Assembly: GCA_951812955.1 (NCBI GenBank)
Contig: OX638340.1
Span: 480,001 to 544,000 of the forward strand
Length of the DNA stretch: 64,000 nt
From: an uncultured Gemmatimonadota bacterium
Lineage (GTDB): Bacteria; JAAXHH01
Reading direction: 5' to 3'
A model generated the notes under the pieces. That model worked only from the letters and a program-made list of their open reading frames with translations. It was not told where the DNA came from and ran no database searches. The position numbers and the translations under genes are program-made. Below are positions 9,937 to 50,887 of this stretch, piece after piece (the stretch's first letter is position 1; each line of letters starts with the position of its first letter).

Positions 9937-10008
9937 GATTCTCCTCCTGCAGAAAAGATTCAGATACTGATTAAAACCCAAAGCAGCACAATAACTTACT
10001 AACATTCA

Positions 10009-14248: not shown

Positions 14249-14305
14249 CGTGTACCGAATCTATATGGCGGGGCGGACGCTGGGCCCGCCACGCTTTGTT
14301 CACCA

Positions 14306-14935: not shown

Positions 14936-14983
14936 TGCGTATCTCCTCTGTTTTTCGTTTGCTCAGGCTCTCAGTCTTTCCGA

Positions 14984-17038: not shown

Positions 17039-17246
17039 GGAAACCTGTCCGGATACGGGGATACCGGATCACACAGCAACAGGTCTGGCCTGCATGCCTT
17101 GGATTCCACGAATGCTCTGCAATTCAAACGCGATTTAACGCAAGTATCTCACCAATGTATTTGTCCGGATTACTGATGTAAAGCCCTTTGTGTCTGGTAC
17201 CGCCCGACGGCGCCGGTCTCGAAGGTGGTTTCACCGCGCAGGCGTC

Positions 17247-17855: not shown

Positions 17856-17858
17856 GGA

Positions 17859-19640: not shown

Positions 19641-19662
19641 GGCTATCCTTCGATCACCCGGC

Positions 19663-21252: not shown

Positions 21253-22209
21253 TCACATACGGCCGCGTGCCTGTTCGACAAACCATAGGTGGTCGGCGCG
21301 GATCAGGGATTCGTCCCGTTCGGCAGTGGCGAGAAAACCGAGTTTGTTCACGACGCGCAGAGCGGTGTACAGGTCCCACCACGGCAGGCAGCCGAAGTCC
21401 ACCCGATTCACGGATTCGTAGTACCGGGTGAAGGCGTCCATTATGTCTGGTCCGTAGAGCATCAGGATCTCGAACCGGGCATTCGACACGTCGTAGAGGG
21501 GATCCCCCAGGCGCGTGTCTTCCCAGTCGATGACCGCAGTGAGCCGGCCATCCCGCCAGAGCGTATTCCCCGGCCAGTAGTCTCCGTGCAGGACGACCGG
21601 AGTGTTATTCAAGGACAACGGCCAGCGTGGATTAAGCAGATCCAGCAAAGTACGTTCATCGGCCGAGACCAGGGCAGGATCACTTTTTCTACAAAACGCT
21701 TCGGTACAGTCATCCTCCAGCTTCAGCAGGAAATCGAGATCCCGTCCGGCCAGATCCATCTGGTGGACCTTGGCCAGTTCGCCCGCCATCTGCATCACGT
21801 AGTCCGTGGGATCATCGGGTTTCAGGTCGGTAACGCCTTCCATGTATTCCACGACGAGGGACGGCGTAGAGAACAATGGGTCGTTCGAGTCCAGGTAAAC
21901 CGGATTGGGCGTGGCCAGGCCTGCCGCGTGCGTTAACTGAAGGACCCGGAACTCGTCCGCGGCCACGTTCGGGTTCTGCTGAAGGTCGACCTCGCCGTGC
22001 AGACGGTGAATGAGTTTCCTCATCGTACCATCCGATAACTCGATTTCCAGGACGGTCACGTCGGCCGAATAACCACCGGGCAGGCTGAGATGGCGCTTCA
22101 GCCTGGCGTGCGGATTGAATCTGTGGACCAGTTTCTCGAACCGACTGGATTCGTCTACAGTTGCCATGTGTCTCAAGTACAGTTGGTTTCCCGACCAAGC
22201 CCGGACCAT
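21253..22209 (-). CDS. Phosphotransferase-family (APH-like) kinase
   Basis: It carries VLHGDYWPGN (catalytic HGD..N) and DWEDTRLGDP (the DxD metal-binding motif) of the aminoglycoside/choline kinase fold. The likely start is the internal MATVDES. Confidence 0.7.
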   Translation of the reverse strand: MVRAWSGNQLYLRHMATVDESSRFEKLVHRFNPHARLKRHLSLPGGYSADVTVLEIELSDGTMRKLIHRLHGEVDLQQNPNVAADEFRVLQLTHAAGLATPNPVYLDSNDPLFSTPSLVVEYMEGVTDLKPDDPTDYVMQMAGELAKVHQMDLAGRDLDFLLKLEDDCTEAFCRKSDPALVSADERTLLDLLNPRWPLSLNNTPVVLHGDYWPGNTLWRDGRLTAVIDWEDTRLGDPLYDVSNARFEILMLYGPDIMDAFTRYYESVNRVDFGCLPWWDLYTALRVVNKLGFLATAERDESLIRADHLWFVEQARGRM

Positions 22210-22300
22210 ACCGGACTAAACCGACCGATCCGGCCCAAACCGACCGATCCGGCCCAAACCGACCTATTCTGACCCAACCAGACCGATCTGGACCGGACAT
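22196..22300. repeat. Degenerate tandem 19-20-nt repeats in an intergenic region
   Basis: aaaccgaccgatccggccc appears twice exactly. It is flanked by diverged copies: aagcccggaccataccggact, aaaccgacctattctgaccc and aaccagaccgatctggacc. Confidence 0.75.
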
Positions 22301-22320
22301 TCCAGTTCGCCGAAGGATGC

Positions 22321-23769
22321 CTATTCACCCGGGTAGTCGATCGCCCACCTACCCTCGAGATTTCCGCTGCCGCTCGTTCTGCTCCAGAGGGAAACCACGT
22401 CGGCCGGTGCGTTGTTTTCCGCAAGATGAGCAAGAAACAGTGCGTGCAGGTCATCCAGTGTGTCCACGTTGTCGTCGGCGATATTGTTTTGGGTCAGGCG
22501 GTCATTCGAAAGGTCGTAGAGCTCAGGCCTGCCGTCGGCTCCGACCGGTGCGTAACCCCAACGATCCGTAACGAGGAATGGCGTCGTGGCCCGTCGGGGC
22601 AGGCCGTCACCCGGCATCGCGATGTGGCATCCGCTGACTGCGTAGTCGCGATGGGTCGGCCGGCCATCCAGCACGGCGGGGGCGAAGGAGGCTCCATCGA
22701 AAGGCTTCGGTGGTTCGACCGTGACGGCGGCCAGGTCGCAGAGACTCGGGAACAGGTCGATTGTCTGTGCGATCAGGGGCAGCCGCGTACCTCGGGGTAC
22801 CGCGCCTCCGGCCAGCATCAGCATGACGTGGCCGATCTCCGGGTAGATGGGCCAGTACCTGCCGTCGTCCTCCTGAATGTTTGATTTCCCGGTCCGATCG
22901 TGTTCTCCGATGGACATGCCGTGGTCCGACATGACGGCCACGATGGTGTCATCCCACAGTTCGAGGTCGTCGATCTTCCGCAGGACCTGGCCGATGTGAC
23001 GGTCCACGAGTTCCGCTTCTGCCGCATAATGGGCCCACAGGTTGTGAAGTTCCTCCGGCGTATAGGCGGACGATGGGCCGTAGTTCGGATGCAGCATGGG
23101 CGGACCCGAATAGTCGGGATCGTAGCGTCGCACCAGGTATTCCGGCGGATCCCAGGGTTCGTGGGGATCGAAGAAATCCACCCACAGGAAAAACGGGTTG
23201 GATTCGGCGTTCTCCTCGAGCCAGCGGATTGCGGTCTGCGCCGTCCCGGCCGAGAAGACTTCGGATTCATATCGGTAGTACCGGTTGAGCCAGCGGTGCT
23301 GGTTGACGAGCGTATGCCCGCGAAACCTGGGGTTTATACGGGTTTTTTCGTCCCGGACGACGACATCGACGGGGTCGTTGAGGTGGAGCAGCGGTTTGTC
23401 GCCTTCCTGTCCACGATGCTGGTACGCCGCGTCGAAACCATCGGGGAAACGGGCCTTGAACAGGTGGGGACAGTCACAGATCAACTGCGTGGCGTATCCC
23501 TGTTCGCCAAGCATCCTGCCAGCGTGGTTGGGACCGCTCCGGTCGATGGCCTGCCATCCGTAGTGGGGCCATCCCGTAACGCCCGTCGCAAAATCGGTCC
23601 GGTGCGGGATTGTGGGGAAGCTGCCCATGTGGCACCGCGTGATCTCCGTGGCCCGTTCCGCTCCGAAGCGATCCAGCTCGGGCGTGCGAACGGGACGCTC
23701 CGCACGGCTTCCCAGGTTGTCGTGGCGAAAGGTATCCGTAATGAGTACGACGATGTTCTTCGGCATCAT
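22321..23769 (-). CDS. Sulfatase-fold (alkaline-phosphatase superfamily) hydrolase with Thr at the nucleophile position
   Basis: A 482-aa protein with an N-terminal metal-binding D (LITDTFRHD). Where the C/S-x-P-x-R formylglycine motif would be, the sequence reads F-P-T-I-P-H-R. The C-terminal region of the sulfatase fold is present. Confidence 0.65.
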   Translation of the reverse strand: MMPKNIVVLITDTFRHDNLGSRAERPVRTPELDRFGAERATEITRCHMGSFPTIPHRTDFATGVTGWPHYGWQAIDRSGPNHAGRMLGEQGYATQLICDCPHLFKARFPDGFDAAYQHRGQEGDKPLLHLNDPVDVVVRDEKTRINPRFRGHTLVNQHRWLNRYYRYESEVFSAGTAQTAIRWLEENAESNPFFLWVDFFDPHEPWDPPEYLVRRYDPDYSGPPMLHPNYGPSSAYTPEELHNLWAHYAAEAELVDRHIGQVLRKIDDLELWDDTIVAVMSDHGMSIGEHDRTGKSNIQEDDGRYWPIYPEIGHVMLMLAGGAVPRGTRLPLIAQTIDLFPSLCDLAAVTVEPPKPFDGASFAPAVLDGRPTHRDYAVSGCHIAMPGDGLPRRATTPFLVTDRWGYAPVGADGRPELYDLSNDRLTQNNIADDNVDTLDDLHALFLAHLAENNAPADVVSLWSRTSGSGNLEGRWAIDYPGE

Positions 23770-23864
23770 AGCCCTTTCGAGTCCTGAAGTTGTGGGACAT
23801 TATGGACGCGCAAATCTGTATACATTGAATCAGGCCACCGGGAAACCGCGGTGTTTCCCCGTGC

Positions 23865-24710
23865 TCAACCGGCGATTCGGCAGGCATCCAGGTATAGGTC
23901 CACCGACGCTTTCAGGGTCATCTCCCCGCGCATCACCTGATCTTCATAGGCTCGGTACCAGCCTGGAATCAGCGACCGGGCTTCGCGGAATTCGGCGAGG
24001 ATGAGCCGGGCGAAGTCACCGCTCTCCTCCAGGTACCCGGAATCGTCGAAACACGCGATCGCCCGGGCCCGGTCATAGTCGAGCCGTATGATCTCAGCCT
24101 TCCACGCTCCATCCTCTAATGTCATCTGGGCATAGGCCGCGCGGGGATCGCCGTCGAAAGGCGCGCCTACCGCGCCCACGTTGACGACCAGGGTGCCGTC
24201 CACGTAACGGATCAGGGGCCGGTGCGTGTGTCCCACCAACAGGACCTTCGGCGCGGGAGCGATTTTCTCGCGCAGCGATTCTTCTGTATCATCGGGGAAG
24301 ATGCCCTTGCGGTCTCCCAGCATGGACGCGTGTACCATCCGGATCTCGTTTCCCGATTCGTCTATCATGTCCCACTGGACGGGTAAGTCCTCGAGCGGTT
24401 CGACGAGGCCGTTCAACTGGTCGAATGTCCATTTCGCGTGGCGGGTTATCTCGTATTCCGGGCCGTGTTCGGCCAGGGTCCCCTCAACGTATTTCAGGAC
24501 GTATCTTTCGTGGTTGCCCCGTATGACCGCCCAGTTTTCGGCCCTGGCGCGTCCGAGTACGCTTTCGGTGCAGGCGCGCGGATTCGGGCCCCGGTTGATT
24601 ATGTCGCCCGCGACGAGTACGCGATCGGGGCGCCAGCGATCAATATGGGCGAGGACGGTTTCCAGCGCGTCCAGGTTGCTGTGCACGTCGGCGAATACGG
24701 CGATCTTCAT
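23865..24710 (-). CDS. Calcineurin-like metallophosphoesterase
   Basis: It carries DVHSN, GDIINRGP, GNHE and GHTH motifs. Its stop overlaps the start of the 24707..26938 gene (ATGA). Confidence 0.85.
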   Translation of the reverse strand: MKIAVFADVHSNLDALETVLAHIDRWRPDRVLVAGDIINRGPNPRACTESVLGRARAENWAVIRGNHERYVLKYVEGTLAEHGPEYEITRHAKWTFDQLNGLVEPLEDLPVQWDMIDESGNEIRMVHASMLGDRKGIFPDDTEESLREKIAPAPKVLLVGHTHRPLIRYVDGTLVVNVGAVGAPFDGDPRAAYAQMTLEDGAWKAEIIRLDYDRARAIACFDDSGYLEESGDFARLILAEFREARSLIPGWYRAYEDQVMRGEMTLKASVDLYLDACRIAG

Positions 24711-26938
24711 GGTGATTTGGGTTTGATTATTTGTTCAGTCGACAGGAATCGACGCAACACGTTGGCTACGATCCTGGATATGTCGTTGCCGCCCTCGTTG
24801 TAAAGCAGGCTGCCGCAGAAGGTAATGGATCCCGTAGAAAAGAGCTGGCTGCCTGTATCCGACTGCTGGTAAACCATGTCCGCCCGAACCAGTCTATCGA
24901 TCGGTTCTCCGGACCAGGTGGTGATGTGGGTAAGCAGTTCCTCCGGAACGGGAATGAAGGACTCGTGATGGTTTTCGGAACTTGCGATGACGCGCGTATT
25001 TTCGGGCGTTCCCAGCCGATGGTCGGCCCGGTCGAGTTCAAATCCGGCCGCCCCGTTGCCGCTGAAACCATAATCACCCACGGTTTCGCCCGTCACGCCC
25101 TCGAAGATCCACGCGGTCTCGGGGTTGGTGCGTGCGTCCGGGCTGATACGGTAGTACGATCCGTGAAAGTTGCCCTGTGCGGAAAACCCCACGGCCGCAA
25201 GCTGCTGCGGGGGACGGCCGTTCCTGCGCCAGAGTCCCCCGTAGCCGCCGTCGAAGGCGTGGTAGTACTCGCCAGGTTCCGCCGCCCAGGCCCGGATGCC
25301 GCCTTCATTGCGCCGGATTTCCAGCGTTCCATTGTCTTCCGGGTGGACGGCGATACGCCAGTAGAATCCGTTGCCGCCCAGGTACATGAAGTGGCCGCCC
25401 CGTTCCCGGTACTGTCGCAATGCGTCGAGCGTGCGGGGCGTATGGTATTCCGGATGTGAACCCGTGGTCACGGCGCTATATTCTTTGATCGCCTCGTAAC
25501 CGTCGTCGTGCAGTTCCTGGTCGGTGACGATGTCGAAGGGGATCCCCATCTTTTCGAGCCACGCGTACAGGTGGGTGTCCGCCTGCAGATGCCGCAGCCC
25601 CGAGCAGTCCCCTTCTGTGGCGCCGAAGGTGATGTAGCCCGGCCGTAGGGAGAAGAGAGGGCGCCTGTGACTGGCATGGCAGATGCCACTCCCGTCGGTG
25701 TGGAAATTGTAGGTTGAAAGCCCGTATTTCCGGTACACCGCGGGATTCCAGGGATAGGCGTTCCATGCGCTGATCCGGTCCAGCCAGGACGGCTCGAAGT
25801 TGGGGCGGGCGTGGTTGCCATAGATGGTATAGGTGAAAGTGGACGCCAGTACGCAGAGATCCGCTGTCGGTCTGCCTCTGGGCGGACAGACATAGAACGG
25901 CATCATGTCCTCGTGCTCACCGCAACGGATACGGGCCGCGTATAGTCCCGACTTCATGCCACTTGGAATCGTGAACGTGAAGTCGGTTTCCCAGCCGAAG
26001 TCGTAGATGTCGTCTTCGTGGAAGTGTATGGCGCCGTACTGGTCCGGCGCGTGCTTCCAGGACATCTCCTCACCGGTCCACGTCGAACCGGTCATGGCAC
26101 GGACAGGCATGTTGACCAGGCGGCCTTGCAGTGACAGGGGGCCGACGTCCACCACCCGGGTCGAACTCGTGTCCCGGGCGAAGTCCCACAGAGCCCAGGC
26201 GCCTCGATGGTCTTTGATGTCGTATTCGTGGTCGTCAGTCTCTTCCACCGGAACGTCTACGAGGGCCGGCGCTTCGATCTTTCCATTGAAATGGCCGCTA
26301 ACGGGATCGCCGTCTACGCCGCCGAATATGATCCGTGCCACGTCGTCGATAGAAACGGACCCGATGGCCGCGACCGTGAAATTGGCCGGTCCAGGCAGCG
26401 CGTCCAGCGCGCGGAATCCCACGCTCACCGTGCCGTTTCCGGCATCGTAACTGGCCCACACCCGGTACCATCGCCTGGCCTTGATCGGCTCGCTTCGGCA
26501 GGTGATGAGGCGCTCCTGGTTTGCCGATAATTGGACTGCAACGGTTAAAGCGGCGCGGTCCAGGCAAAGACTCAGCACCGGCTTCCGTTCGCTGTTGCCG
26601 CAACTTACGATGCCCTGGCGTACTTTTTGAGGGGTCGTCGGCCAGATGGTGGCGGAGATGGAAATGCCATAGTCAGATTGGAAGCGGCCGTCTAGCGGGA
26701 TGACGGCGTGGGAGCCCGGATCGAACGGTTGAGACCTGGAAGGGAATTCGCCGCCGAAGGAAAGGTCCACGTCCTTGATTTGCAGGCCAGGACCAGCCGG
26801 ATTGGGATCGGCGCAGATCACGCGGACGAGACTGGCGTGAAAGGGCTCCCGGGCTTCGCTGCTTACCTTGAAGGCGATTTCGTCGCCGGGCCGGCCGGAC
26901 AACCGGTCGGAGTAGCCCAGTAAAGGAATTTCGTTCAT
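24707..26938 (-). CDS. Large (743-aa) enzyme resembling the N,N-dimethylformamidase large-subunit family
   Basis: The size and overall sequence character match my recollection of DmfA2-like proteins, which are about 760 aa. There are no signal peptide motifs. The assignment is tentative. Confidence 0.4.
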   Translation of the reverse strand: MNEIPLLGYSDRLSGRPGDEIAFKVSSEAREPFHASLVRVICADPNPAGPGLQIKDVDLSFGGEFPSRSQPFDPGSHAVIPLDGRFQSDYGISISATIWPTTPQKVRQGIVSCGNSERKPVLSLCLDRAALTVAVQLSANQERLITCRSEPIKARRWYRVWASYDAGNGTVSVGFRALDALPGPANFTVAAIGSVSIDDVARIIFGGVDGDPVSGHFNGKIEAPALVDVPVEETDDHEYDIKDHRGAWALWDFARDTSSTRVVDVGPLSLQGRLVNMPVRAMTGSTWTGEEMSWKHAPDQYGAIHFHEDDIYDFGWETDFTFTIPSGMKSGLYAARIRCGEHEDMMPFYVCPPRGRPTADLCVLASTFTYTIYGNHARPNFEPSWLDRISAWNAYPWNPAVYRKYGLSTYNFHTDGSGICHASHRRPLFSLRPGYITFGATEGDCSGLRHLQADTHLYAWLEKMGIPFDIVTDQELHDDGYEAIKEYSAVTTGSHPEYHTPRTLDALRQYRERGGHFMYLGGNGFYWRIAVHPEDNGTLEIRRNEGGIRAWAAEPGEYYHAFDGGYGGLWRRNGRPPQQLAAVGFSAQGNFHGSYYRISPDARTNPETAWIFEGVTGETVGDYGFSGNGAAGFELDRADHRLGTPENTRVIASSENHHESFIPVPEELLTHITTWSGEPIDRLVRADMVYQQSDTGSQLFSTGSITFCGSLLYNEGGNDISRIVANVLRRFLSTEQIIKPKSP

Positions 26939-27750
26939 TAGCTACCCGGAAGTAGTTCGTCGTCCGGCCGCCGCTCGCGGTAGCCGCAGACCATCAGACC
27001 GGGCCGACCGAAGCTTTGGCCGTATTCCTGCCTGTTATCGGGATTCCGGTAGCCCATGCGAACGAGTCTCCGCGGCCGTTTCGTCTGGTTAATGTAGGAA
27101 CCGTGCACGGTATCGATGCAGAACAGGACCACGTCGCCTGCCCTGGCCGGAACGGGCACCGTGTCTGCCAGATTGTACTCGTTCGTGGGCAGGTGCGGCG
27201 CACAGGGTCCCTCTTCCGTTTCCGTGATGTGCTGGAGATGGCCGGATTTATGAGATCCCGCCAGGAAGCGGATTTCGCCGTTTTCGTGACAGGTATCGTC
27301 CAGGTGCACGAGGACGTCGATGTACCGGCCGTCGTGATGGCCGTAAAAAGGGTTGTCCTGGTGCAGGGGAAATGGATGGCCTGTCTGGGGCGGCTTGATA
27401 TGCAGCGTGGTGTGGTGCAGCTCCACGTTCGGACCCAGCAGCTGCGACAGGGCCTCGACCAGCCGGGGATTGGCTACCGCACGAGACCAGGCCTGGGAAT
27501 AGAAATGGAGGTCGTGCATGGCCGTAAGCTTAGACCTGGCCTCCGTTTCCGGATCCATATACGCCAGGCGCCAGGGACCGTTCCACCCCGGGCTCGTGAA
27601 AGCCCAATCCTCGACGAGCCGGTCCATTTGTGCTGAAAGTTCGGCCGTTTCTTCCGGCGTGAAGATCTCCGGGATGTGGAGAAACCCATTTTCATGGTAG
27701 AACGCGATCCGCTCGTCGCTCAGCACGGTTTGTTCCATGACCATGGTCAT
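26938..27750 (-). CDS. Phytanoyl-CoA dioxygenase (PhyH) family Fe(II)/2-oxoglutarate oxygenase
   Basis: It has HQD...H (PLHQDNPFYGHH ... H) metal-binding motifs and a PhyH-like length. Confidence 0.8.
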   Translation of the reverse strand: MTMVMEQTVLSDERIAFYHENGFLHIPEIFTPEETAELSAQMDRLVEDWAFTSPGWNGPWRLAYMDPETEARSKLTAMHDLHFYSQAWSRAVANPRLVEALSQLLGPNVELHHTTLHIKPPQTGHPFPLHQDNPFYGHHDGRYIDVLVHLDDTCHENGEIRFLAGSHKSGHLQHITETEEGPCAPHLPTNEYNLADTVPVPARAGDVVLFCIDTVHGSYINQTKRPRRLVRMGYRNPDNRQEYGQSFGRPGLMVCGYRERRPDDELLPGS

Positions 27751-27907
27751 TGCTGATTCTCCTTGTTGGGTTTGCGTGCGGGGAGTTTAAGGCGTTTCCT
27801 TCCCTTCGAATTTAGCAAGTCGGGCACCGGCAGGCAACACCATTTCAACGCGATGCGCAATCGGCTGGTTGGAATTCCTCACGTAGGCTGATCGCCTCAT
27901 CCAAAGA

Positions 27908-28888
27908 TCACGAACGGTACACTTCAGCCAGAAGTTCGTATGACCGCAACCGGGCTTTGAAATCATGGGTGATGGTGACGGCCATGATCTCTTCAGCGCC
28001 GAACTGGTCCGCAAGCCGGTCGATGGTGTCCCGGACCTGCTCCGGACTGCCCACGGCCGCGAGCCGGAACTTGTCGTCGAGGAATGCGCGTTCGGCTTCA
28101 CTGAACTGGTGCTTCTCGGCCTCCTCCACCGTGGGCACGACGTTGCTAGGCTTGCCCGATGCGAAACGGGCGAAGAGCAGATCGCGGCTCAGGGCGAGAC
28201 GTCGGGCTTCCGCCTCGGTGTCGGCGCAGATGACGTTGATCGCAATACAGGTCTTGGCCTGGGGCGACTGGGTGGACGGCTCGAAATATTGGCGATAGAA
28301 TTCCAGGATGCGCGGGTCGATGTTGCTGTTGATGAACAGGGCAAAATTGTAGGGGAGTCCCAGACGGGCCGCCAGCATGGCGCTATCGGGACTGGAACCG
28401 AGCATCCAGACCGGAGGCGGAGACAAGATGGGCGGTGTGACCCGCGGCTCGAAATCCTTGTCTTGCAGGATCTCCACGAGTTCAGCAACCAGATCGGGAA
28501 ACTGATCGAACCGGGGTCCGGCGCCGGGCGACAGCATCCGGGCGGTCTTCATGTCGCCGCCGGGCGCACGGCCGACCCCCAGGTCGACGCGGTCCGGGTA
28601 GAGATTCGTGAGCACGGAGAAGCTTTCGGCGACCTTGAAGGGACTGTAATAGGGCAGCATGACGCCGCCGGACCCGATCCGCATGCCTCCCGTGGCGGCT
28701 CCGATGGCCGCGAGCAACACTTCGGGCGAACTTCCGGCCAGGCAGTGGGCGTTGTGGTGCTCGGACACCCAGAAGCGCTTGTAACCCAGGCGTTCAGCCG
28801 TTCTGGCCAGGGTCAGGGTCTCCTGGAAGGCCTGCACCGCCGTGACGCCTTCCCGCACGGGGGACTGATCGAGTATGGACAGGTTCAT
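27908..28888 (-). CDS. LLM-class (luciferase-like) flavin-dependent oxidoreductase
   Basis: A 326-aa protein with an N-terminal FWVSEHH motif and the bacterial-luciferase TIM-barrel pattern. Confidence 0.8.
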   Translation of the reverse strand: MNLSILDQSPVREGVTAVQAFQETLTLARTAERLGYKRFWVSEHHNAHCLAGSSPEVLLAAIGAATGGMRIGSGGVMLPYYSPFKVAESFSVLTNLYPDRVDLGVGRAPGGDMKTARMLSPGAGPRFDQFPDLVAELVEILQDKDFEPRVTPPILSPPPVWMLGSSPDSAMLAARLGLPYNFALFINSNIDPRILEFYRQYFEPSTQSPQAKTCIAINVICADTEAEARRLALSRDLLFARFASGKPSNVVPTVEEAEKHQFSEAERAFLDDKFRLAAVGSPEQVRDTIDRLADQFGAEEIMAVTITHDFKARLRSYELLAEVYRS

Positions 28889-28948
28889 TAATCAGGATTC
28901 CTATTCGTTACCAGGTTCAATTTAAACGGTTAGGTCGGGATCGCCCGA

Positions 28949-30931
28949 CTACCAGCCGTCCACGATATGGCCCGCGCCCGGAAACCAGGCCGCGTCCACC
29001 AGAAAGGTCAGAAAGACGCCGAGGACATAGCCCGCGAGAATGCCAATAAACAGGGGTTGTGCCTTGCGGTACAGCGATACGCCGCCGAGACGCAGGATCA
29101 CCGTCTTGATCAGCCAGACGATCAGAATGGAAAAGAAAGCCATGTCGGCCGCGTAGGTGGTCACGATCCCGAATCCCACGGGATGGAGGGGCCAGAAATG
29201 CAGCCGGTGATGGGCCCAGATCAGGAATCCCGAGATCAAAATCCCGTTCAACACCATGGTCAGCTGAGGTTGTGTCATGGCCTGAGGATTGGTCAGGAAG
29301 GTCTCCAACTGGGCCCAGTATCCGCTCGCGCCGGACTGAAAACCGCCGGCCTGGAGCTGGGACGCGCCCATGTCATACCCCAGGTACAGCGTGTACACGA
29401 TGGCCGTCATGAATCCGATGAAGAGTGAAAGGGCAATGGCGCCGAAAACGCCCCGGCCCACGCCGCCCATGACGTCCCCCACCTTGGCGGCGTGCGCCAT
29501 CGAACACATCCCGAGCGTCCGCCAGTTGCGCGTAAAGGTCTGGCAGAGCCACATCCCCGTGATCGTGCGGGCATTGATGTGCTCCGACCCGACGAACCGG
29601 AACGTGATCTCGTTGGCGCTGTTGTACGGCAGGTCCAGGGACGCCAGGCCGGTCTCGGCCACTACGCGGGTCACGCCGATGTACAGAACCAGCAGCACGA
29701 ACATCATGAGCATCACGACCCAGAGCGTCATGCCCGCGCTCCACAGGAGGAAAACCATGTAAAGCGAACCGCCGGCGAAAGATAGGACGGCCGTGCGATA
29801 GGAAAAGAACTCCCGTGTATCATCGATTTCCGGCGCTTTGCCGAATGCCTTCCGAAACACGTCACGGATATGCCTGCGTGCCATCCACAGACCGAACAGC
29901 ACGAAAATGAAAAAGCCGGACAGATGTTGAAAGTGCATCATCTCGAGAGGACCGGGGACGCCGACCCGCGTCATCACGCCCTGTTGAACGATGCGGATGA
30001 GATAGAACAACCAGACGCTGAGCAGCACCTCCACCCTCGTGAAGTACGCCACCCCGATCAGCAGGAAATTCAGGCGGACCTGGATCGGGTGGAAGGCTTC
30101 ATACAGGGTCAGGGGAAAGGCGTGCCCCGCGCCGAAAGGGATGGCGGGGAACAGATCGAAGAAGCTGAACATATTCCAGGTCATGATAAACAGCGTGATG
30201 CCGAACCCCCACCAGAACAGGCGCACGCGGGCAATCCTCGGGAACAGGGCCGTTTCTTCGGCCCCGTCGACCAGCGTCAATGGCACCTGGGCTAGCGGGA
30301 AGGTCAGCCGTTCGTGTTCCACCCACTGCTTCCGCAGGATGACCATGATAGACGCGCCGACCAGGAAGAGGGCGATGTAGAATGTTATCCACCAGAACAT
30401 GGGCACCCACCAGATTTGCCATCGGATGGTTGTTCCCGAATACACGCCTTCATAGAATTGGTTCAGACCGCCCAGGTTGTCCCGCACGACCAGCCAGGAA
30501 GGAAGGTAGTCGAGGAAAAGTTCCGCCCAGCGGTTTTCGGGGTTGGCGTAGTAGAAAGGACCGCTGATGATCGAGACCGCGTAATTGCTGAAGGCCCATC
30601 CGGGGATGGCGGACGCCGTGAAGACCAGGAAGAAGATCACGATCAGCTCCTGCCGGCTGAATGGACGGCCGTAACCCGCCTTTTTCAATACCGGGTTGAC
30701 CAGGAGTACCATCAGCAGGAAGGGCAGCAGCGCGGCGACGGGCAGGTGGGTGACCGTGATGAAGGATCCGCGCGTGACGAATTCGGAGGAGAGCGACCAG
30801 AGCGTCAGTAGGACGGTGAAGACGCATCCTATGGCCACGGCCCGTAGGGTAAGGCCGGCGGAAACGGGTTGCTTTACAGGCGGAGGCACGGTGGCCTGTC
30901 GGCCGGTCTGGGGCGATGAGACAGTGGGCAT
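28949..30931 (-). CDS. Large polytopic membrane protein of unknown function, 660 aa. Paralog of 1..1770.
   Basis: At least 12 predicted TM segments. It shares conserved blocks with the partial gene at the window start. Confidence 0.6.
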   Translation of the reverse strand: MPTVSSPQTGRQATVPPPVKQPVSAGLTLRAVAIGCVFTVLLTLWSLSSEFVTRGSFITVTHLPVAALLPFLLMVLLVNPVLKKAGYGRPFSRQELIVIFFLVFTASAIPGWAFSNYAVSIISGPFYYANPENRWAELFLDYLPSWLVVRDNLGGLNQFYEGVYSGTTIRWQIWWVPMFWWITFYIALFLVGASIMVILRKQWVEHERLTFPLAQVPLTLVDGAEETALFPRIARVRLFWWGFGITLFIMTWNMFSFFDLFPAIPFGAGHAFPLTLYEAFHPIQVRLNFLLIGVAYFTRVEVLLSVWLFYLIRIVQQGVMTRVGVPGPLEMMHFQHLSGFFIFVLFGLWMARRHIRDVFRKAFGKAPEIDDTREFFSYRTAVLSFAGGSLYMVFLLWSAGMTLWVVMLMMFVLLVLYIGVTRVVAETGLASLDLPYNSANEITFRFVGSEHINARTITGMWLCQTFTRNWRTLGMCSMAHAAKVGDVMGGVGRGVFGAIALSLFIGFMTAIVYTLYLGYDMGASQLQAGGFQSGASGYWAQLETFLTNPQAMTQPQLTMVLNGILISGFLIWAHHRLHFWPLHPVGFGIVTTYAADMAFFSILIVWLIKTVILRLGGVSLYRKAQPLFIGILAGYVLGVFLTFLVDAAWFPGAGHIVDGW

Positions 30932-31050
30932 GATGTCAGTGGATTCCAGGAGAGGAGGGGGCTGGACTGCGTCCTACGTTACGCGTCAACTCTAGGCGTA
31001 CGTAAATCAACTGTACTATGTGTTCCCGGGCAGCTCAAGGACATAGGGAA

Positions 31051-31881
31051 TCAACGGTTCTCAACACAGTTCCTGAGCTTTTCCAGACCCTTTTGAGCCG
31101 TGGTTACCGGTCCTTCGGCCCAGTACGCCGGATTGAACAGTTCCAGTGAAAGCATGCCCCGGTAATCCTGCTGTTCCAGGCTGGCCACGATCTCGTCCCA
31201 GGGCGCTTCGCCGTCGCCCGGATAGACCCTGTGCTCGTCCTCGATATCCACGTGGGCGGGTACCGCTGGATAGTCGTTCACGTGGACCAGACCCAGCCGG
31301 CCGGGACCGAGGTAATCCATCCCCCGCTGGTGTCCGCTTCCCTTGTACATGTGGAAGATGTCGGTCAGTAGCCTGGCATCTCGCACGCCGCTTTCCGCGG
31401 CGACGAGAAGGGCTTCGCCGACCGTGCCCAGCGTGCGGGCTATTCCCCAGAATTCCAGCAGGGGTTTCGGGGAGAAATCCGAAACGGCATCCGAAAGTTC
31501 GGCAAATCTCCTGGCGACAGAAAACAGGTCGACCTCCCGGTCGTGGATCCCCTTCGGGGCCGTGGCTACATAGGGGCATTCCAGGTCCTGGGCCATCTTG
31601 AAGCACCGTCTCGCTTCTTCAAGCCCTCTGGCATGGCGGTCGGTTTCGGGAACCGCCCATTCGAAAAATGCGATCAGGTTCACGATACGGATCCCGCGGC
31701 TGTCCGCGCGTTCGCGAATCTGTTCCACCGTTCCGCCTTCTTCGACCCAGGCATCGATTTCCTCTGCCCAGGGTTCAATGCCGTCATACCCGGCATCGGC
31801 CGCGATATCCACGTATTCCAGTACGGAAACTCCGGGCGACCGGATCGTGCTGGTATTGAGGCAGTAGTCAAAACGTCCCAT
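31051..31881 (-). CDS. Sugar phosphate isomerase/epimerase (xylose-isomerase-like TIM barrel)
   Basis: A 276-aa protein with an AP-endo-2 TIM-barrel pattern (IEPW...E, HVNDY). It lies directly upstream of, and on the same strand as, the membrane protein. Confidence 0.75.
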   Translation of the reverse strand: MGRFDYCLNTSTIRSPGVSVLEYVDIAADAGYDGIEPWAEEIDAWVEEGGTVEQIRERADSRGIRIVNLIAFFEWAVPETDRHARGLEEARRCFKMAQDLECPYVATAPKGIHDREVDLFSVARRFAELSDAVSDFSPKPLLEFWGIARTLGTVGEALLVAAESGVRDARLLTDIFHMYKGSGHQRGMDYLGPGRLGLVHVNDYPAVPAHVDIEDEHRVYPGDGEAPWDEIVASLEQQDYRGMLSLELFNPAYWAEGPVTTAQKGLEKLRNCVENR

Positions 31882-32070
31882 TTGTCACATCCCTTCTGCT
31901 GGGCCGCCGTACCGCCCGTACAGGATCCGGACGGCGCGGTTGTATGGCCATTTTTAAGGCATGCTTCAAGAGTAATAACCAATCATAGATGGCTTTACAA
32001 AATTCTGTACTTTTTTAAACGGTTTCGCCTATATTGTAAACCGCTTAAAAGAAAAACGCCATCCATAGTG

Positions 32071-33009
32071 ATGTCAGGAGCGTACGTGCGGGACTTTTCA
32101 AGCTTCTCGAGATCAATTCTGCTCTTCTGTCTTCTCCTGATTCCCCAGGCTGTTTCGGGTCAGACGAGCGTGACGGACGTCACCGGGACCACGTTTACCG
32201 TGGGTAGCACCCCGCAGAGAATCGTGTCCTTAATCCCGAGTAACACCGAACTGCTTTTCGCTGTCGGGGCGGGAAGTTCGGTCGTCGGGGTGACGAATTA
32301 CTGCGACTATCCCCCCGAAGCTCGGAAAATCGAGAAAGTCGGCGACCTCACGGCCATGAGCCTGGAAAAAGTCGTCGCCCTCGACCCTGAACTGGTACTG
32401 GCCACGAAGGGAAACTCCAAGGAACTGGTATTCAGTCTGAGGGCGCTGGGTGTCCGGGTGTTCGTCCTCGACCCACAGACAATCGAGGAAGTACTCGATG
32501 CCATTGGCAAGGTGGGTGCGCTCACAGGGCGTTCCGAGGCTTCGCGCGCGCTTGTCGACAGCTATAGACAAAGACTGGCCCATGTCGCGGACCGGATTGA
32601 CGAGCTAACGGAAAGCGAACGTCCCACGGTATTCGTCGGCAGTCCGTTCAGGGACGAAAACTGGACGCCAGGTCCCGAAACGTATACCTCGGCGGTAATC
32701 CGCCGGGCCGGTGGCCGGAACATTGCCGACGACCTGGCGCCACGTACCTGGGCGGTTTACAACCTGGAGAACATCGTCTCGAAGGACCCGCAGGTCCTGC
32801 TGTCCACCCTGGGCGTGGGACAGGACCCCTCGGAAACGAGGACGAGGTTCCTTGAGCGGGCGAAGTCGCTCGAGGGCTGGCGCGATCTGGACGCCATTCG
32901 CAACGAACGCGTCGTGCTGATTCCAGAGAACTGGCTGCTTCGGCCGGCGCCCAGGCTCTTCCAGGCGATCGAAACGCTGGCGAGTGCCCTGCATCCGAAC
33001 CTGTTCTGA
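32071..33009 (+). CDS. Periplasmic binding protein, PF01497 (BtuF/FecB-like) class, ABC transporter substrate-binding
   Basis: The start is at the ATG at 32071 (MSGAYVRDFSSFSRSILLFCLLLIPQAVSG, a signal peptide). The motif RIVSLIPSNTELLFAVGAGSSVVGVT is typical of cobalamin/siderophore/heme binding proteins. The ORF track's 31543 start overlaps the upstream gene on the other strand. Confidence 0.75.
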   Translation: MSGAYVRDFSSFSRSILLFCLLLIPQAVSGQTSVTDVTGTTFTVGSTPQRIVSLIPSNTELLFAVGAGSSVVGVTNYCDYPPEARKIEKVGDLTAMSLEKVVALDPELVLATKGNSKELVFSLRALGVRVFVLDPQTIEEVLDAIGKVGALTGRSEASRALVDSYRQRLAHVADRIDELTESERPTVFVGSPFRDENWTPGPETYTSAVIRRAGGRNIADDLAPRTWAVYNLENIVSKDPQVLLSTLGVGQDPSETRTRFLERAKSLEGWRDLDAIRNERVVLIPENWLLRPAPRLFQAIETLASALHPNLF

Positions 33010-33060
33010 AGGCGTCCACGAGTAAACGCTAACGATACCTGATACACCTGGCGATCCTTT

Positions 33061-35253
33061 ATGCCTCTTCTAAGCAAAATACCTAACGAGCTGTACAGCC
33101 TGTTACGGACCAGATTCCCGGCAGACGCGGACAAGGCGGAGCTGATTTTCGCCTGCAGAACGGATCTGGCGCCGGACGGCCGCATCCAGGAATCGATGTT
33201 GCTGGTCACCCGGCGTCACCTGGCGGTAGCCACGCTGTCCGACGGGCAGTGGTCGCTGACGCACTCCTTGCCCCTGGTGGACATCACTGGGCTGAACGTC
33301 GAGCCGCTCGTCGGCGCGAGCGCGCTAATGGCCAAGGTGGACGGCAGGGAGATCAGGCTGCTCCGGTATTCCCATGCGGTGGCCCAGGACATGTCGGACG
33401 CTGTCGAGTCCCTGTTGCATCTGATCGGTCCCGATGGCAGTCCGGACCATACGGAGCCCGTTATAGAAGACCCGGTTCCGGACTGGTCGAGCCGCGAGGC
33501 TCACCTGCGCACGTTCCGGCGCCTGTGGGCATTCTGCCTGCCGCACTGGCGCACGCTGGTCATCGCCATGGCCGTCACCATCGTGGCATCGGCCATCGAC
33601 CTGTTGCCCCCGTACCTGACCATGATCCTCGTGGACCAGGTCCTGGTGGACATGAGCACCTACATGTATCTTCCGCTGATCGTCGCGCTGCTGGCGGTGT
33701 CCCGTATCGTCCATACCGGAGTGACCGTCGTGAGCGGCAGAATGCTGGCCGTGCTGGGTGACCGGCTGGCCTTCGACGCGCGGTCGGAGTTGCTGAACGT
33801 CCTGCAACTGCTGCCTCTCAAGTACTACGATATGCAGCAGACGGGCGGACTCATGGCCCGTATCGCACGGGACGCCAAGTCGATCCACTACTTCTGGATC
33901 GATTTCGCGCCGCAGGTGATCCAGCAGGGACTGCTGGTAATCGGCATGACCGCGGTGCTTTTCTACCTGAACTGGGAGCTGGCCTTCCTCGTCCTGATCC
34001 CCATTCCCGCCATCATCTTCGCATCGATACACATCAAGCGCTACCTGATGTGGTTTTACGGAAGGTCCTGGGACAGCTGGGCGACCTTTTTCGAACGGGT
34101 CAACGACGCGCTGGCCGGCATCCGGGTCGTGAAGATCTTCGCCCAGGAGAAACGGCAAAGCCGGGACATGCATCTCGAGAACGAGAAGGTGTTTACGGCC
34201 GAACGCAACATACACGTCCGATCACGCACGGTGCGCCCCCTCCTCGCCTTCATCGTGTCCGTGGGCGGGCTCCTCGTCTGGTGGTATGGCGGGAGACAGG
34301 TTCAATCGGCGGAAATGACCATCGGCATGCTGATGGCCTTCTTCCTCTACCTGAGCATGTTCTACAATCCCGTGCAGCAACTGACCAGCATGGCCGACTG
34401 GATTCCCGAGATGATGACGGCCATAACCCGCACCTTCGAGGTCATCGACAGTCCCATCGAGGACTATACGCCAGGCGAGACCGTCGACGTGCCCCGTTTC
34501 GAGGGACGCCTGGAGCTGCAGGACGTCAACTTCGGCTACGTGGCGCACCAGCCCGTGCTAAAAGGGATCAACCTGCACGTCGAACCGGGCGAGATGATCG
34601 GGCTCGTGGGACACTCGGGCGCGGGCAAGTCCACCCTCATCAAGCTGATGTGCCGCTTCTACGACGTCGATGGGGGCGGGATACTCATCGATGGGATCGA
34701 CGTTCGACGGATGGACCTGATGCAGCTGCGCAGCCAGATCGGGTACGTGGAGCAGGATCCCTTTCTGTTCTCCGGGTCCGTGACCGACAATATCCGCTTC
34801 GGCAACCGGGAAGCGTCCCGGGAGGAGATCATCGAGGCCGCCATCAACGCGAACGCCCACGAATTCATCGTCAAGCTGCCTGATGGTTACGATACGCCCG
34901 TAGGCGAACGGGGCGGCAGACTGTCCGGCGGTGAGCGTCAGCGCGTCGCGATCGCACGGGCCATCCTGCACGATCCGCGGATCCTGATTCTCGACGAACC
35001 TACGTCGGCCCTCGACCTGGAAACGGAGAAGAAGATCCAGGAAGCCCTGGGACGGCTCATGGAGGGCCGCACGACGCTCGCCATAGCCCACCGGCTGTCC
35101 ACCCTGAGAGACGCCGACCGGCTGCTCGTACTCAAGAACGGAGAGCCGGTGGAACTGGGTACCCACGAAGAGCTGCTGAACCGGCAAGGCGAGTACTACC
35201 GGCTGGTCCAGTTGCACACCAACGTCTCCAGCATCGTGGGCGTGGAGGGGTAA
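33061..35253 (+). CDS. ABC transporter fused permease/ATPase (type I exporter fold) with an extra N-terminal soluble domain of about 150 aa
   Basis: It has six-helix TMD and NBD motifs: Walker A GHSGAGKST, signature LSGGERQR, Walker B ILILDE and an H-loop. Residues 1 to about 150 precede the first TM helix and are hydrophilic. Confidence 0.85.
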   Translation: MPLLSKIPNELYSLLRTRFPADADKAELIFACRTDLAPDGRIQESMLLVTRRHLAVATLSDGQWSLTHSLPLVDITGLNVEPLVGASALMAKVDGREIRLLRYSHAVAQDMSDAVESLLHLIGPDGSPDHTEPVIEDPVPDWSSREAHLRTFRRLWAFCLPHWRTLVIAMAVTIVASAIDLLPPYLTMILVDQVLVDMSTYMYLPLIVALLAVSRIVHTGVTVVSGRMLAVLGDRLAFDARSELLNVLQLLPLKYYDMQQTGGLMARIARDAKSIHYFWIDFAPQVIQQGLLVIGMTAVLFYLNWELAFLVLIPIPAIIFASIHIKRYLMWFYGRSWDSWATFFERVNDALAGIRVVKIFAQEKRQSRDMHLENEKVFTAERNIHVRSRTVRPLLAFIVSVGGLLVWWYGGRQVQSAEMTIGMLMAFFLYLSMFYNPVQQLTSMADWIPEMMTAITRTFEVIDSPIEDYTPGETVDVPRFEGRLELQDVNFGYVAHQPVLKGINLHVEPGEMIGLVGHSGAGKSTLIKLMCRFYDVDGGGILIDGIDVRRMDLMQLRSQIGYVEQDPFLFSGSVTDNIRFGNREASREEIIEAAINANAHEFIVKLPDGYDTPVGERGGRLSGGERQRVAIARAILHDPRILILDEPTSALDLETEKKIQEALGRLMEGRTTLAIAHRLSTLRDADRLLVLKNGEPVELGTHEELLNRQGEYYRLVQLHTNVSSIVGVEG

Positions 35254-35256
35254 GCC

Positions 35257-35736
35257 TTGTCCTTTCTCGATCCGGCCGCCATACGCCTCGAACGGCGCGA
35301 AGAACAGCCGCCAACGTTGTCCATCGCGGGCGACCTGTTCTTCAACGTCAAAATCCGTCAGGCCTTTCCGCTCTCCTTCGAAAGCCGGTACATTACTTTC
35401 TTTGATCAGGAAGATGAATATCTGGGGATCGTGGCCGACCCGGAAGCCTGCGACGAGGATACCTGTCGGATTATCCGTGATGAAATCGAATGGCGCTATT
35501 TCCGGCCGAGGATAGAGCGCGTCCTGGAAATGGAAGGCCGGGGTGGCACGTCCATATTCTCGGTGGAGACGGACCGGGGCGCGGTAAAGATCCCGATGCG
35601 GGACCTCAGGGAAGGCATGATGGAGTTGTCGCCTGGCCGAATCCTGATCACGGACGAGCACGGCAACCGGTACGAGATCCCCGACCTCGACCGGCTGGAT
35701 CGACGGAGCCGCCGCCTGATCCGCCGCCTGATCTGA
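35257..35736 (+). CDS. DUF1854-like small cytoplasmic protein coupled to the ABC exporter gene
   Basis: A 159-aa protein whose start codon is 4 nt after the ABC gene stop. The family call is from memory of DUF1854 proteins, which follow ABC ATPase/permease genes. Confidence 0.45.
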   Translation: MSFLDPAAIRLERREEQPPTLSIAGDLFFNVKIRQAFPLSFESRYITFFDQEDEYLGIVADPEACDEDTCRIIRDEIEWRYFRPRIERVLEMEGRGGTSIFSVETDRGAVKIPMRDLREGMMELSPGRILITDEHGNRYEIPDLDRLDRRSRRLIRRLI

Positions 35737-49119: not shown

Positions 49120-49158
49120 GGTAATCCCCGGAACACGTTCGAGGCGTTTCGGAGGACG

Positions 49159-50445: not shown

Positions 50446-50473
50446 AGGAACAAGGACCGGGCCTTGAGATGAA

Positions 50474-50704: not shown

Positions 50705-50789
50705 CTTCTTTCCTCCTGTCCGTATGAATTGTTGGCTTTCTTGACTACATGTTGAAATCAAATTCCCGCTTCAGTTGCGAATGATCTAT

Positions 50790-50861: not shown

Positions 50862-50887
50862 TCGGTTTGCTGTAGATTGTTTTGCAC

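What the first reader, a model, noticed from the sequence alone, without database searches (positions are those of the whole stretch)
28949..31881. Two paralogous 600-660-aa polytopic membrane proteins, one with a TIM-barrel isomerase partner
The 660-aa membrane protein at 28949..30931 and the partial gene at 1..1770 share long conserved blocks: FYYANPEN, RKQWVEHERLxFPL, FSYRTAV and RVVAETG. They are otherwise diverged, so this is an old duplication.

The 28949..30931 copy is co-directional with, and immediately downstream of, a xylose-isomerase-like TIM-barrel gene (31051..31881). Near the 1..1770 copy there is also such a gene (3468..4265), on the opposite strand and separated from it by an NhaC-like transporter.

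I could not place the membrane protein in a named family. Its size and conservation suggest a transporter, or a membrane-embedded enzyme, for the sugar-like substrate of the associated isomerases.
Basis: seen in the sequence. Interest (0 to 1): 0.5.

Follow-up and report, generated by a model that had tools for sequence, protein, structure and literature searches.

The report
Uncharacterised transporter family with OPT/Yellow-Stripe fold
The two membrane proteins are diverged copies from a large, unstudied bacterial family (Pfam DUF6785+DUF6784) whose predicted 3-D shape matches only the plant iron-chelate/oligopeptide transporter Yellow Stripe 1, so they are most likely nutrient importers, and in this branch of the family they sit next to sugar-modifying enzymes.

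Summary
28949..30931(-) (660 aa) and the edge-truncated 1..1770(-) (590 aa) are paralogs: 35% identity over 586 aa, E 2e-107. Both PF01261 TIM-barrel genes and the NhaC-like gene lie where stated.

The membrane protein does belong to a named family, but an uncharacterised one: Pfam DUF6785 + DUF6784. I found no paper on it. The family is large, with 7,074 representatives at 50% identity, and is multi-copy in Latescibacterota-type and sponge-symbiont MAGs.

The TIM-barrel link is real but local. Copy 1 also has a co-directional TIM partner, just beyond the window edge, and the pair persists at 58% identity. In 11 annotated homolog loci, PF01261 genes lie within three genes of a DUF6785 gene 7/68 times versus 0/87 further away (p=0.003). 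Across 42 dereplicated clusters only 4 show it (p=0.12). Other branches sit beside TPR, FG-GAP, M28-FtsX, GGT or Opp genes. The substrate is inferred (a sugar- or cyclitol-like, possibly sulfated, organic) and untested.

The parts
28949..30931 (-). Copy 2: complete 660-aa DUF6785 + DUF6784 polytopic membrane protein, with a predicted OPT/Yellow-Stripe fold.
1..1770 (-). Copy 1: the N-terminal 590 aa of a paralogous DUF6785/DUF6784 protein. Its C-terminus is cut off by the window edge.
   Evidence: Translation is open to the edge. PF20581 E 9e-100, plus the start of PF20580. 35% identical to copy 2. Full-length orthologs P0115 (86%) and L043 (81%). The P0115 model hits only HvYS1.
31051..31881 (-). 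TIM-barrel partner of copy 2 (PF01261, 276 aa, no signal peptide). It lies 119 nt upstream on the same strand.
   Evidence: Pfam E 4.6e-30. Best PDB sequence matches are IolI 1i60 (E 7e-10) and the N-domain of 5hmq. NCBIfam QuiC 53 bits, far below the cut-off of 1200. The gene is conserved upstream of copy-2 orthologs L001-L006, L019 and L026.
3468..4265 (+). Second PF01261 TIM-barrel gene (265 aa). It is transcribed divergently from the NhaC-copy 1 pair.
   Evidence: Pfam E 1.4e-29. PDB TM0416 E 1.5e-30. NCBIfam IolO 159 bits, below the cut-off of 300. It holds the same position in L043 and L089.
1890..3296 (-). NhaC-type membrane protein (PF03553, 468 aa) directly upstream of copy 1 on the same strand.
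   Evidence: Pfam E 6.7e-50. The order NhaC -> DUF6785 -> TIM is kept in L043 (gaps of 7 and 17 nt) and in L089, but is lost at 58% identity in L090.
4370..5386 (-). GFO/IDH/MocA oxidoreductase (338 aa) beside the copy-1 cluster.
   Evidence: Pfam PF01408, PF22725 and PF02894. It is a recurrent neighbour family, fam1.
27908..28888 (-). Luciferase-like (MsnO8-family) flavin oxidoreductase, 60 nt downstream of copy 2 on the same strand.
   Evidence: Pfam PF00296 E 1.4e-43. NCBIfam TIGR03558 373 bits, above the cut-off of 167.
26938..27750 (-). PhyH-family Fe/2-oxoglutarate dioxygenase in the same co-directional run.
   Evidence: Pfam PF05721 E 1.3e-31.
24707..26938 (-). 743-aa protein with a DMFA2_C-like domain, in the same run. 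Its stop overlaps the next gene's start.
   Evidence: Pfam PF20254 E 5.8e-89.
23865..24710 (-). Metallophosphoesterase in the same run.
   Evidence: Pfam PF12850 and PF00149.
22321..23769 (-). Sulfatase without a signal peptide, so probably cytoplasmic, in the same run.
   Evidence: Pfam PF00884 E 1e-23, with the domain starting at residue 4. N-terminus MMPKNIVVLITDTFRHD.
21253..22209 (-). APH-type kinase, the last gene of the run before two tRNA genes.
   Evidence: Pfam PF01636. tRNAs at 20977-21173(-).

Best explanation
Both genes encode inner-membrane secondary transporters of a large, sequence-orphan branch of the OPT/Yellow-Stripe fold superfamily. Pfam splits this single fold into two entries, DUF6785 and DUF6784.

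By analogy with HvYS1 (inferred, not shown), a core domain with helical hairpins would carry the substrate past a scaffold domain, driven by an ion gradient.

The family has radiated into many paralogs per genome, and each paralog is wired to a different catabolic gene set. The two window copies belong to a marine/sponge-symbiont clade. In that clade the co-directional neighbours are cytoplasmic enzymes:
- PF01261 TIM barrels of IolI-, IolE- and IolO-like types
- GFO/IDH/MocA and short-chain dehydrogenases
- sulfatases that lack signal peptides

The most likely job is therefore import of a sugar-, cyclitol- or glycoside-like organic solute, possibly sulfated, that these enzymes then process in the cytoplasm.

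What is shown: the paralogy, the family membership, the fold match and the neighbour statistics. What is inferred: transport itself, its direction, the coupling ion and the substrate class.
For: Fold:
- The copy-2 model has pLDDT 85.
- Foldseek against the PDB finds only 7wst/7wsr (HvYS1) at E<=1e-8, probability 1.0, TM 0.62-0.67 over the full length. The next hit has E 0.04 and TM 0.11.
- An independent model of the copy-1 ortholog P0115 (pLDDT 86) gives the same single hit.

Family:
- 7,074 representatives at E<=1e-3.
- At least 598 genomic loci, often several per genome and in tandem or convergent pairs.

Context:
- Genes 21253-31881 other than copy 2 lack signal peptides. Copy 2 is the only membrane protein in that run.
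- PF01261 genes lie within 3 genes of a DUF6785 gene 7/68 times against 0/87 further away, p=0.0026.
- Sulfatases: 4/68 against 0/87, p=0.035. The adjacent sulfatases lack signal peptides.
- The DUF6785->TIM pair persists at 58% identity while the upstream genes change.
- Closest relatives of copy 2 sit beside GH4, GH95 and apiosidase/cellulase-like glycosidases and a BNR protein.
Against: - No sequence similarity to OPT models: Pfam at E<=10 for 36 members, NCBIfam, and PDB sequence or profile search. Homology rests on predicted structures alone.
- No family member has been studied.
- The TIM link is absent from most of the family: 4/42 clusters, p=0.12.
- Other branches sit beside peptide-related genes: GGT, an M28-FtsX giant protein (including one fusion), and Opp SBP/permeases. 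The substrate class inferred here therefore cannot be generalised, and could be wrong for the window copies too.
- PF01261, GFO and sulfatase genes are abundant in these genomes.
- The look-up sample was small and was not chosen at random.
- Copy 1 shares its operon with a second membrane protein (NhaC-type), which could be the actual carrier.
Confidence: 0.7

Rival explanations
1. The proteins are ordinary OPT-type peptide or glutathione importers. The neighbouring sugar enzymes are incidental.
For: - The only structural relative belongs to the oligopeptide-transporter superfamily.
- Some family members sit directly beside gamma-glutamyltranspeptidase: 3 of 124 neighbours.
- Some sit beside a ~1,500-aa PA/M28-peptidase + MacB/FtsX protein (7 of 42 clusters), and one 2,120-aa protein fuses the two.
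- In L068 and L056 they are interleaved with OppA-type SBPs and OppB/C permeases.
- M55 and M3 peptidase genes lie near copy-1 orthologs.
Against: - The co-directional neighbours of both window copies, and of their closest relatives, are TIM-barrel, GFO, SDR, sulfatase and glycosidase genes rather than peptidases.
- The M55 and M3 genes are on the opposite strand.
- The peptide-type contexts belong to other subclades of the tree.
Confidence: 0.12
2. The protein is a membrane-embedded enzyme or another non-transport protein. Examples would be a glycosyl- or acyl-transferase acting on a sugar-like substrate.
For: - Many invariant polar and aromatic residues: R200, Q202, W203, R352, H354, E374, Y378, R379, D646 and H655.
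- No transport data exist.
Against: - The pattern of many paralogs, each in a different catabolic cluster, is what substrate-specific carriers typically show.
Confidence: 0.08
3. Copy 2 is a YSL-like importer of a metal-chelate (metallophore).
For: - HvYS1 carries Fe(III)-phytosiderophore.
- Copy 2's cluster is divergently adjacent to a Peripla_BP_2 binding protein (32059..33009) and a fused ABC transporter (33061..35253).
- A TonB-dependent receptor lies at 12053..14248.
Against: - Those genes are on the other strand or lie beyond two tRNA genes.
- No metallophore-biosynthesis or iron-related genes recur next to family members in 42 clusters or in 11 look-ups.
- Sequence identity to HvYS1 is 11-14%. 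Conservation of its binding residues was not assessed.
Confidence: 0.05

Closest known systems
Barley Yellow Stripe 1 (HvYS1; PDB 7wsr/7wst), OPT/YSL superfamily (TC 2.A.67, Pfam PF03169)
   Different: Only 11-14% identity, and no hit to OPT sequence models even at E<=10. The family is bacterial, in Latescibacterota-type lineages. Genomic contexts in this clade are carbohydrate and sulfatase enzymes rather than metal-chelate or peptide metabolism. Dimerisation, proton coupling and the binding-site residues of HvYS1 were not tested.
Pfam DUF6785 (PF20581) + DUF6784 (PF20580)
   Same: Both window proteins match far above the gathering scores. All 36 aligned homologs carry both domains.
   Different: These entries carry no functional information. 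The two entries together make up one continuous OPT-like fold and are not two independent domains.
Fungal and plant OPT (PT-clade) oligopeptide and glutathione transporters
   Same: They belong to the same superfamily as HvYS1 by classification (my own knowledge). Some DUF6785 subclades have peptide-type neighbours such as GGT, M28 and Opp genes.
   Different: No sequence match. No solved structure was available for comparison. The window copies lack peptide-type co-directional neighbours.
Inositol and keto-sugar catabolic TIM-barrel enzymes (IolI, IolE, IolO/TM0416, QuiC N-domain), for the partner genes
   Same: PF01261 membership. The best PDB or NCBIfam similarities are to these enzymes. 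A GFO/IDH/MocA (IolG-type family) gene lies nearby.
   Different: All scores are far below the equivalog cut-offs (53/1200, 159/300). The three partners are mutually unrelated beyond family level.

Membership tests
Pfam DUF6785 (PF20581) | HMM score above the gathering threshold (25 bits) | tested here: met
   Copy 2 scores 386.8 bits and copy 1 scores 335 bits.
Pfam DUF6784 (PF20580) | HMM score above the gathering threshold (26.4 bits) | tested here: met
   Copy 2 scores 71.6 bits. Copy 1 is cut by the window edge and reaches only 18.5 bits over the first 31 residues. All 34 full-length relatives in alignment A4, including the copy-1 ortholog P0115, carry precomputed PF20580 hits.
OPT superfamily (PF03169 / TIGR00728; TC 2.A.67) | Sequence match to the OPT family models | tested here: not met
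   No PF03169 hit at E<=10 in any of 36 members. No NCBIfam hit at E<=1e-3. No PDB sequence or profile hit to 7wsr at E<=10.
OPT superfamily (PF03169 / TIGR00728; TC 2.A.67) | YS1-type fold (core plus scaffold domains) | tested here: met
OPT superfamily (PF03169 / TIGR00728; TC 2.A.67) | Internal inverted repeats | tested here: inconclusive
   hhalign of the N-half against the C-half of alignment A1 finds nothing (E 0.08).
OPT superfamily (PF03169 / TIGR00728; TC 2.A.67) | Ion-coupled transport of peptides or metal chelates | not testable with these tools
   Requires uptake assays.
Xylose-isomerase-like TIM barrel (PF01261), partner genes | HMM score above the gathering threshold (31.1 bits) | tested here: met
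   105.6 and 104 bits. The off-window partner of copy-1 orthologs is annotated PF01261 in L089 and L090.
IolI / IolO / QuiC / IolE equivalogs, partner genes | NCBIfam equivalog score above the curated cut-off | tested here: not met
   QuiC 53.5 bits against a cut-off of 1200. IolO 158.9 bits against a cut-off of 300. The PDB similarities are weak.
   A TIM gene lies within 2 genes in 4 of 42 clusters dereplicated at 70% identity. Near 5/144 against far 2/219, p=0.12. Pfam census: 6 of 124 neighbours.
   Near 7/68 against far 0/87, p=0.0026. The copy-1 pair is kept at 86% and at 58% identity. The copy-2 pair is kept in 8 loci at 86-99% identity.

The most novel reading that the evidence does not exclude
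DUF6785/DUF6784 is an unrecognised third major clade of the OPT/Yellow-Stripe superfamily, and its substrates are not peptides or metal chelates. Its substrates would be carbohydrate-derived organics: glycosides, cyclitols and sulfated sugars or oligosaccharides. It would serve as a principal inner-membrane nutrient importer of Latescibacterota/PAUC34f-type bacteria, including sponge symbionts, feeding cytoplasmic sulfatases and GFO/TIM-barrel pathways. Tandem paralogs might form heterodimers, and some members might work with OppA-type binding proteins.
Probability: 0.3. Interest if true: 0.65.

Novelty: new variant of a known kind. Interest (0 to 1): 0.45.

Why it matters
The OPT/YSL superfamily has one solved structure, and (from my own knowledge) almost no characterised prokaryotic members. 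Here a family of more than 7,000 diverged sequence clusters is catalogued only as two DUFs, yet it can be assigned that fold with high confidence.

The genomic contexts suggest a substrate range beyond peptides and metal chelates. If confirmed, this would name the missing inner-membrane importer in many catabolic clusters of uncultivated Latescibacterota-type bacteria and sponge symbionts. It would also explain how substrates reach their signal-peptide-less sulfatases, and it would widen what the Yellow-Stripe fold is known to carry.

Tried and rejected
- **Sequence routes to a known family all failed.** NCBIfam gave no hit. PDB phmmer and a profile hmmsearch gave none at E<=10. Pfam at E<=10 on 36 members gave only the two DUFs plus noise.
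- **AFDB50 fold search.** The library was unavailable.
- **Internal-repeat detection.** hhalign of the two halves found nothing.
- **Kyte-Doolittle TM scan.** It found only about 10 strongly hydrophobic segments and was too crude for a topology or positive-inside call.
- **My first two gene callers were rejected.** Greedy longest-ORF and length-maximising DP dropped the TIM gene or picked spurious frames. I replaced them with a codon-usage log-odds DP.
- **A duplicated transporter-plus-TIM module was rejected.** The partners of the two copies show no pairwise similarity, E about 1.
- **PhyH as a specific partner was rejected.** It is abundant but not enriched near the gene (p=0.73).
- **Promoter/terminator and Rfam scans of the locus.** No regulatory element appeared beyond chance; only tRNAs were found.
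- **Literature search** for DUF6785, DUF6784, PF20581 and PF20580 returned 0 papers.
- **Profile-profile comparison with an OPT alignment was not possible.** No OPT sequence could be obtained.
Full report
**1. Observation**

The ORF 28949..30931(-) encodes 660 aa. Reading 1..1770(-) gives an uninterrupted 590-aa N-terminal fragment that leaves the window. The two align over 586 residues at 35% identity, E 2e-107. The blocks RKQWVEHERLxFPL, FSYRTAV and RVVAETG are exact in both copies. FYYANPEN is only approximate, since copy 1 reads FYFASPEN.

31051..31881(-) and 3468..4265(+) are both PF01261 xylose-isomerase-like TIM barrels, and 1890..3296(-) is an NhaC-type PF03553 protein.

**2. Family**

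The membrane protein is not unplaceable. Both copies match Pfam DUF6785 (387 and 335 bits). Copy 2 also matches DUF6784, while copy 1 is cut just as DUF6784 begins.

Nothing functional is attached to these entries:
- NCBIfam has no model for them.
- Source names are only 'hypothetical' or 'DUF6785 family protein'.
- A full-text search for the four identifiers found no paper.

The family is large. A profile search of 1.84 billion 50%-identity representatives returns 7,074 proteins at E<=1e-3 and 2,476 at E<=1e-30. Labelled hosts are Latescibacterota, sponge-derived MAGs labelled 'Gemmatimonadetes/Gemmatimonadota', Zixibacteria and a few Planctomycetota.

The window is 95.8% identical at DNA level to the whole 14.9-kb contig JAPOOT010000161.1 of the MAG APA_bin_41, whose name suggests a sponge origin. 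That MAG carries at least three further family loci: L011, L014 and L026. In the 81 records examined I found 107 family genes. They are often in tandem or convergent pairs: another DUF6785 gene lies within three genes in 16 of 42 clusters dereplicated at 70% identity.

**3. Fold**

An AlphaFold2 model of copy 2, built from 36 homologs, has pLDDT 85 and pTM 0.85 and is an all-helical polytopic protein.
- Foldseek against the PDB finds only the barley Yellow Stripe 1 transporter: 7wst_A E 1.6e-9 and 7wsr_A E 1.6e-8, probability 1.0, TM 0.62/0.67, full-length alignment. The next hit has E 0.04 and TM 0.11.
- A second model, of P0115 (86% identical to window copy 1), was built from a different alignment and has pLDDT 86 and pTM 0.88. 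It gives the same single significant hit.

At sequence level there is no link:
- No PF03169 hit at E<=10 in 36 members.
- No OPT NCBIfam hit.
- No PDB hit with either a sequence or a profile.

I therefore treat the family as a sequence-orphan branch with the OPT/YSL fold. It works like an OPT-fold carrier, but membership of the OPT family by its sequence definition was tested and not met. DUF6785 and DUF6784 together form one fold.

**4. Window context**

Two tRNA genes at 20977-21173(-) break the long minus-strand gene run. The upstream part, 21253..31881, contains in order:
- a TIM barrel
- copy 2
- an MsnO8-type luciferase-like oxidoreductase
- a PhyH dioxygenase
- a DMFA2_C-like protein
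- a metallophosphoesterase
- a sulfatase
- an APH-type kinase

None of the enzymes has a signal peptide, and the sulfatase domain starts at residue 4. Copy 2 is the only membrane protein in this run.

The run beyond the tRNAs, 12053..20781, encodes an FAA-hydrolase-family protein, a 593-aa lipoprotein-like unknown, a PQQ dehydrogenase, a DUF1080/3-keto-disaccharide hydrolase and a TonB-dependent receptor, all with N-terminal signal-peptide-like sequences, plus a HAD hydrolase without one.

Copy 1 follows the NhaC-type gene on the same strand. A TM0416/IolO-like TIM barrel and a GFO/IDH/MocA oxidoreductase lie beside them.

**5. Is the TIM-barrel partnership conserved?**

*Within orthogroups, yes.*
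- Eight loci with copy-2 orthologs (86-99% identity) keep the TIM gene directly upstream. These are close relatives, so this is weak evidence.
- Copy-1 orthologs (81-86%) show NhaC -> DUF6785 -> a third, different TIM barrel, with gaps of 7 and 17 nt in L043. So copy 1 also has a co-directional TIM partner, located just beyond the left edge of the window.
- At 58% identity (L090) the NhaC/GFO/TIM block upstream is gone, but the downstream TIM gene remains.
- A third group has sulfatase -> TIM -> SDR -> DUF6785, convergent with another DUF6785 gene.
- Further relatives have a PF01261 gene one or two genes away.

In the 11 Pfam-annotated look-ups, all seven PF01261 genes lie within three genes of a DUF6785 gene: 7/68 near against 0/87 further away, Fisher p=0.0026, or 0.007 after dropping one redundant locus. 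Sulfatases show 4/68 against 0/87 (p=0.035). PhyH is common but not enriched.

*Across the family, no.*
- Only 4 of 42 dereplicated clusters have a TIM gene within two genes: near 5/144 against far 2/219, p=0.12.
- A Pfam census of 124 flanking genes counts TPR proteins 11, PhyH 9, PF01261 6, FG-GAP 5, sulfatase 4, GGT 3 and GFO 3.
- The TIM partners of different paralogs are unrelated beyond family level, with BLASTP E about 1.
- The TIM-linked clusters are not sisters in a neighbour-joining tree.

The pairing therefore arose repeatedly and was not inherited as a duplicated module.

**6. Other branches**

In Latescibacterota proper, the genes sit in tight co-directional arrays with large TPR and FG-GAP/ASPIC proteins and with a heparinase II/III-like protein. 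They also sit with a ~1,500-aa protein that combines PA/M28-peptidase-like, MacB-PCD and FtsX domains. That protein is adjacent in 7 of 42 clusters, and one 2,120-aa database protein, P0199, fuses it to a complete DUF6785+DUF6784.

Three clusters have gamma-glutamyltranspeptidase directly upstream. In L068 and L056 the genes are interleaved with one to five OppA-type binding-protein genes and OppB/OppC permeases, with no ABC ATPase in view. These contexts fit peptide-like substrates for those paralogs.

The closest non-syntenic relatives of copy 2 (56-67% identity) instead neighbour GH4, GH95, an apiosidase/cellulase-like glycosidase, a BNR protein and MR_MLE enzymes.

**7. Mechanism proposed**

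Shown: the paralogy, membership of the two DUFs, a unique OPT/YSL-type predicted fold, multi-copy radiation, and clade-specific enrichment of cytoplasmic TIM-barrel and sulfatase genes next to the gene.

Inferred: the proteins are ion-coupled importers working as HvYS1 is proposed to work. Each paralog would serve the catabolic genes around it. The two window copies would take up sugar-, cyclitol- or glycoside-like, possibly sulfated, solutes for IolI/IolE/IolO-like TIM barrels, GFO/SDR dehydrogenases and signal-peptide-less sulfatases. The similarity of the partners to named Iol and QuiC enzymes is well below the curated cut-offs, so no specific substrate can be named.

Rivals:
- a canonical peptide or glutathione importer (0.12)
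- a membrane enzyme (0.08)
- a YSL-like metal-chelate importer (0.05), suggested by the divergent Peripla_BP_2/ABC pair at 32059..35253

**8. Novelty and score**

The family is catalogued but unstudied. I could not find the fold assignment to OPT/YSL in the searchable literature. I could not check Pfam clan or TCDB records, and anyone with AlphaFold models and Foldseek could obtain this assignment.

The interesting element is the combination of four things: an OPT-fold family with no OPT sequence signal, thousands of diverged members, heavy paralogy in uncultivated lineages, and carbohydrate/sulfatase rather than peptide or metal contexts in the clade of the window copies.

I rate it a new variant of a known kind, interest 0.45. 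It is a solid, testable lead and not a surprise in kind.

Noticed in passing
window 41191..47478 (-), with 47468..52633: A 2,095-aa single-module, fully reducing type I PKS (KS-AT-DH-ER-KR-ACP) sits inside a fatty-acid-synthesis-like cluster with a FabF-like KS, a FabD-like AT, RNase III and a lipoate-protein ligase. From memory it resembles the 'Sup'-type PKS of sponge symbionts; I did not test this.
   Followed up: no
P0199 (database protein, 2,120 aa); compare L079:5526-10004 plus 10028-11986: A PA/M28-peptidase-like + MacB_PCD + FtsX giant membrane protein is fused in frame to a complete DUF6785+DUF6784. The same two genes are adjacent and co-directional in 7 of 42 clusters. This could be a real Rosetta-stone link or a gene-call read-through.
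   Followed up: partly
L068:3243-13412 and L056:3-12771: The gene order is DUF6785 -> OppA-type SBP_bac_5 (one to five tandem copies) -> OppB-like -> OppC-like permease -> DUF6785 -> a protein with no Pfam hit (471 aa in L068). No ABC ATPase gene is in view. This raises the question of whether some family members work with binding proteins.
   Followed up: partly
e.g. L060:8029-10026 and 10034-12001; L035:7964-9919 and 10010-11965; L012, L015, L016 and L025 (convergent pairs): Family genes frequently occur as tandem pairs (gap as small as 7 nt) or convergent pairs of diverged paralogs. HvYS1 is a homodimer, so heterodimers are conceivable.
   Followed up: no
window 12053..20781 (-): Beyond two tRNA genes lies a run of mostly signal-peptide-bearing proteins: an FAA-hydrolase-family protein, a 593-aa lipoprotein-like protein with no Pfam or NCBIfam hit (17859..19640), a PQQ dehydrogenase, a DUF1080/3-keto-disaccharide hydrolase and a TonB-dependent receptor; a HAD hydrolase in the run has no signal peptide. 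Together with the cytoplasmic run 21253..31881 this looks like a compartment-ordered uptake and catabolism region.
   Followed up: partly
window 32059..35736 (+): A Peripla_BP_2 binding protein is followed by a 730-aa fused ABC (ABC_membrane + ABC_tran) with a ~160-aa N-terminal extension. The pair is divergent from the TIM/copy-2 cluster and is reminiscent of exporter-fold siderophore importers (from memory).
   Followed up: no
window 58392..60317 (-): An orphan 641-aa SBP_bac_5 (OppA-type) gene has no ABC permease next to it. An APC-family amino-acid permease is encoded divergently at 60477..61739.
   Followed up: no
window 22321..23769 (-), and the fam3 sulfatases in L009, L016, L018, L020, L022, L025 and L034: Sulfatases in and near DUF6785 clusters begin directly with the catalytic N-terminal motif and have no signal peptide. 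This implies cytoplasmic desulfation of imported substrates.
   Followed up: partly
window 6946..10005 (-) and 5414..6892 (-): There are two adjacent amidohydrolase-family genes, one unusually long (1,019 aa, with two Amidohydro_1 stretches). Both are conserved next to the copy-1 cluster in L043.
   Followed up: no
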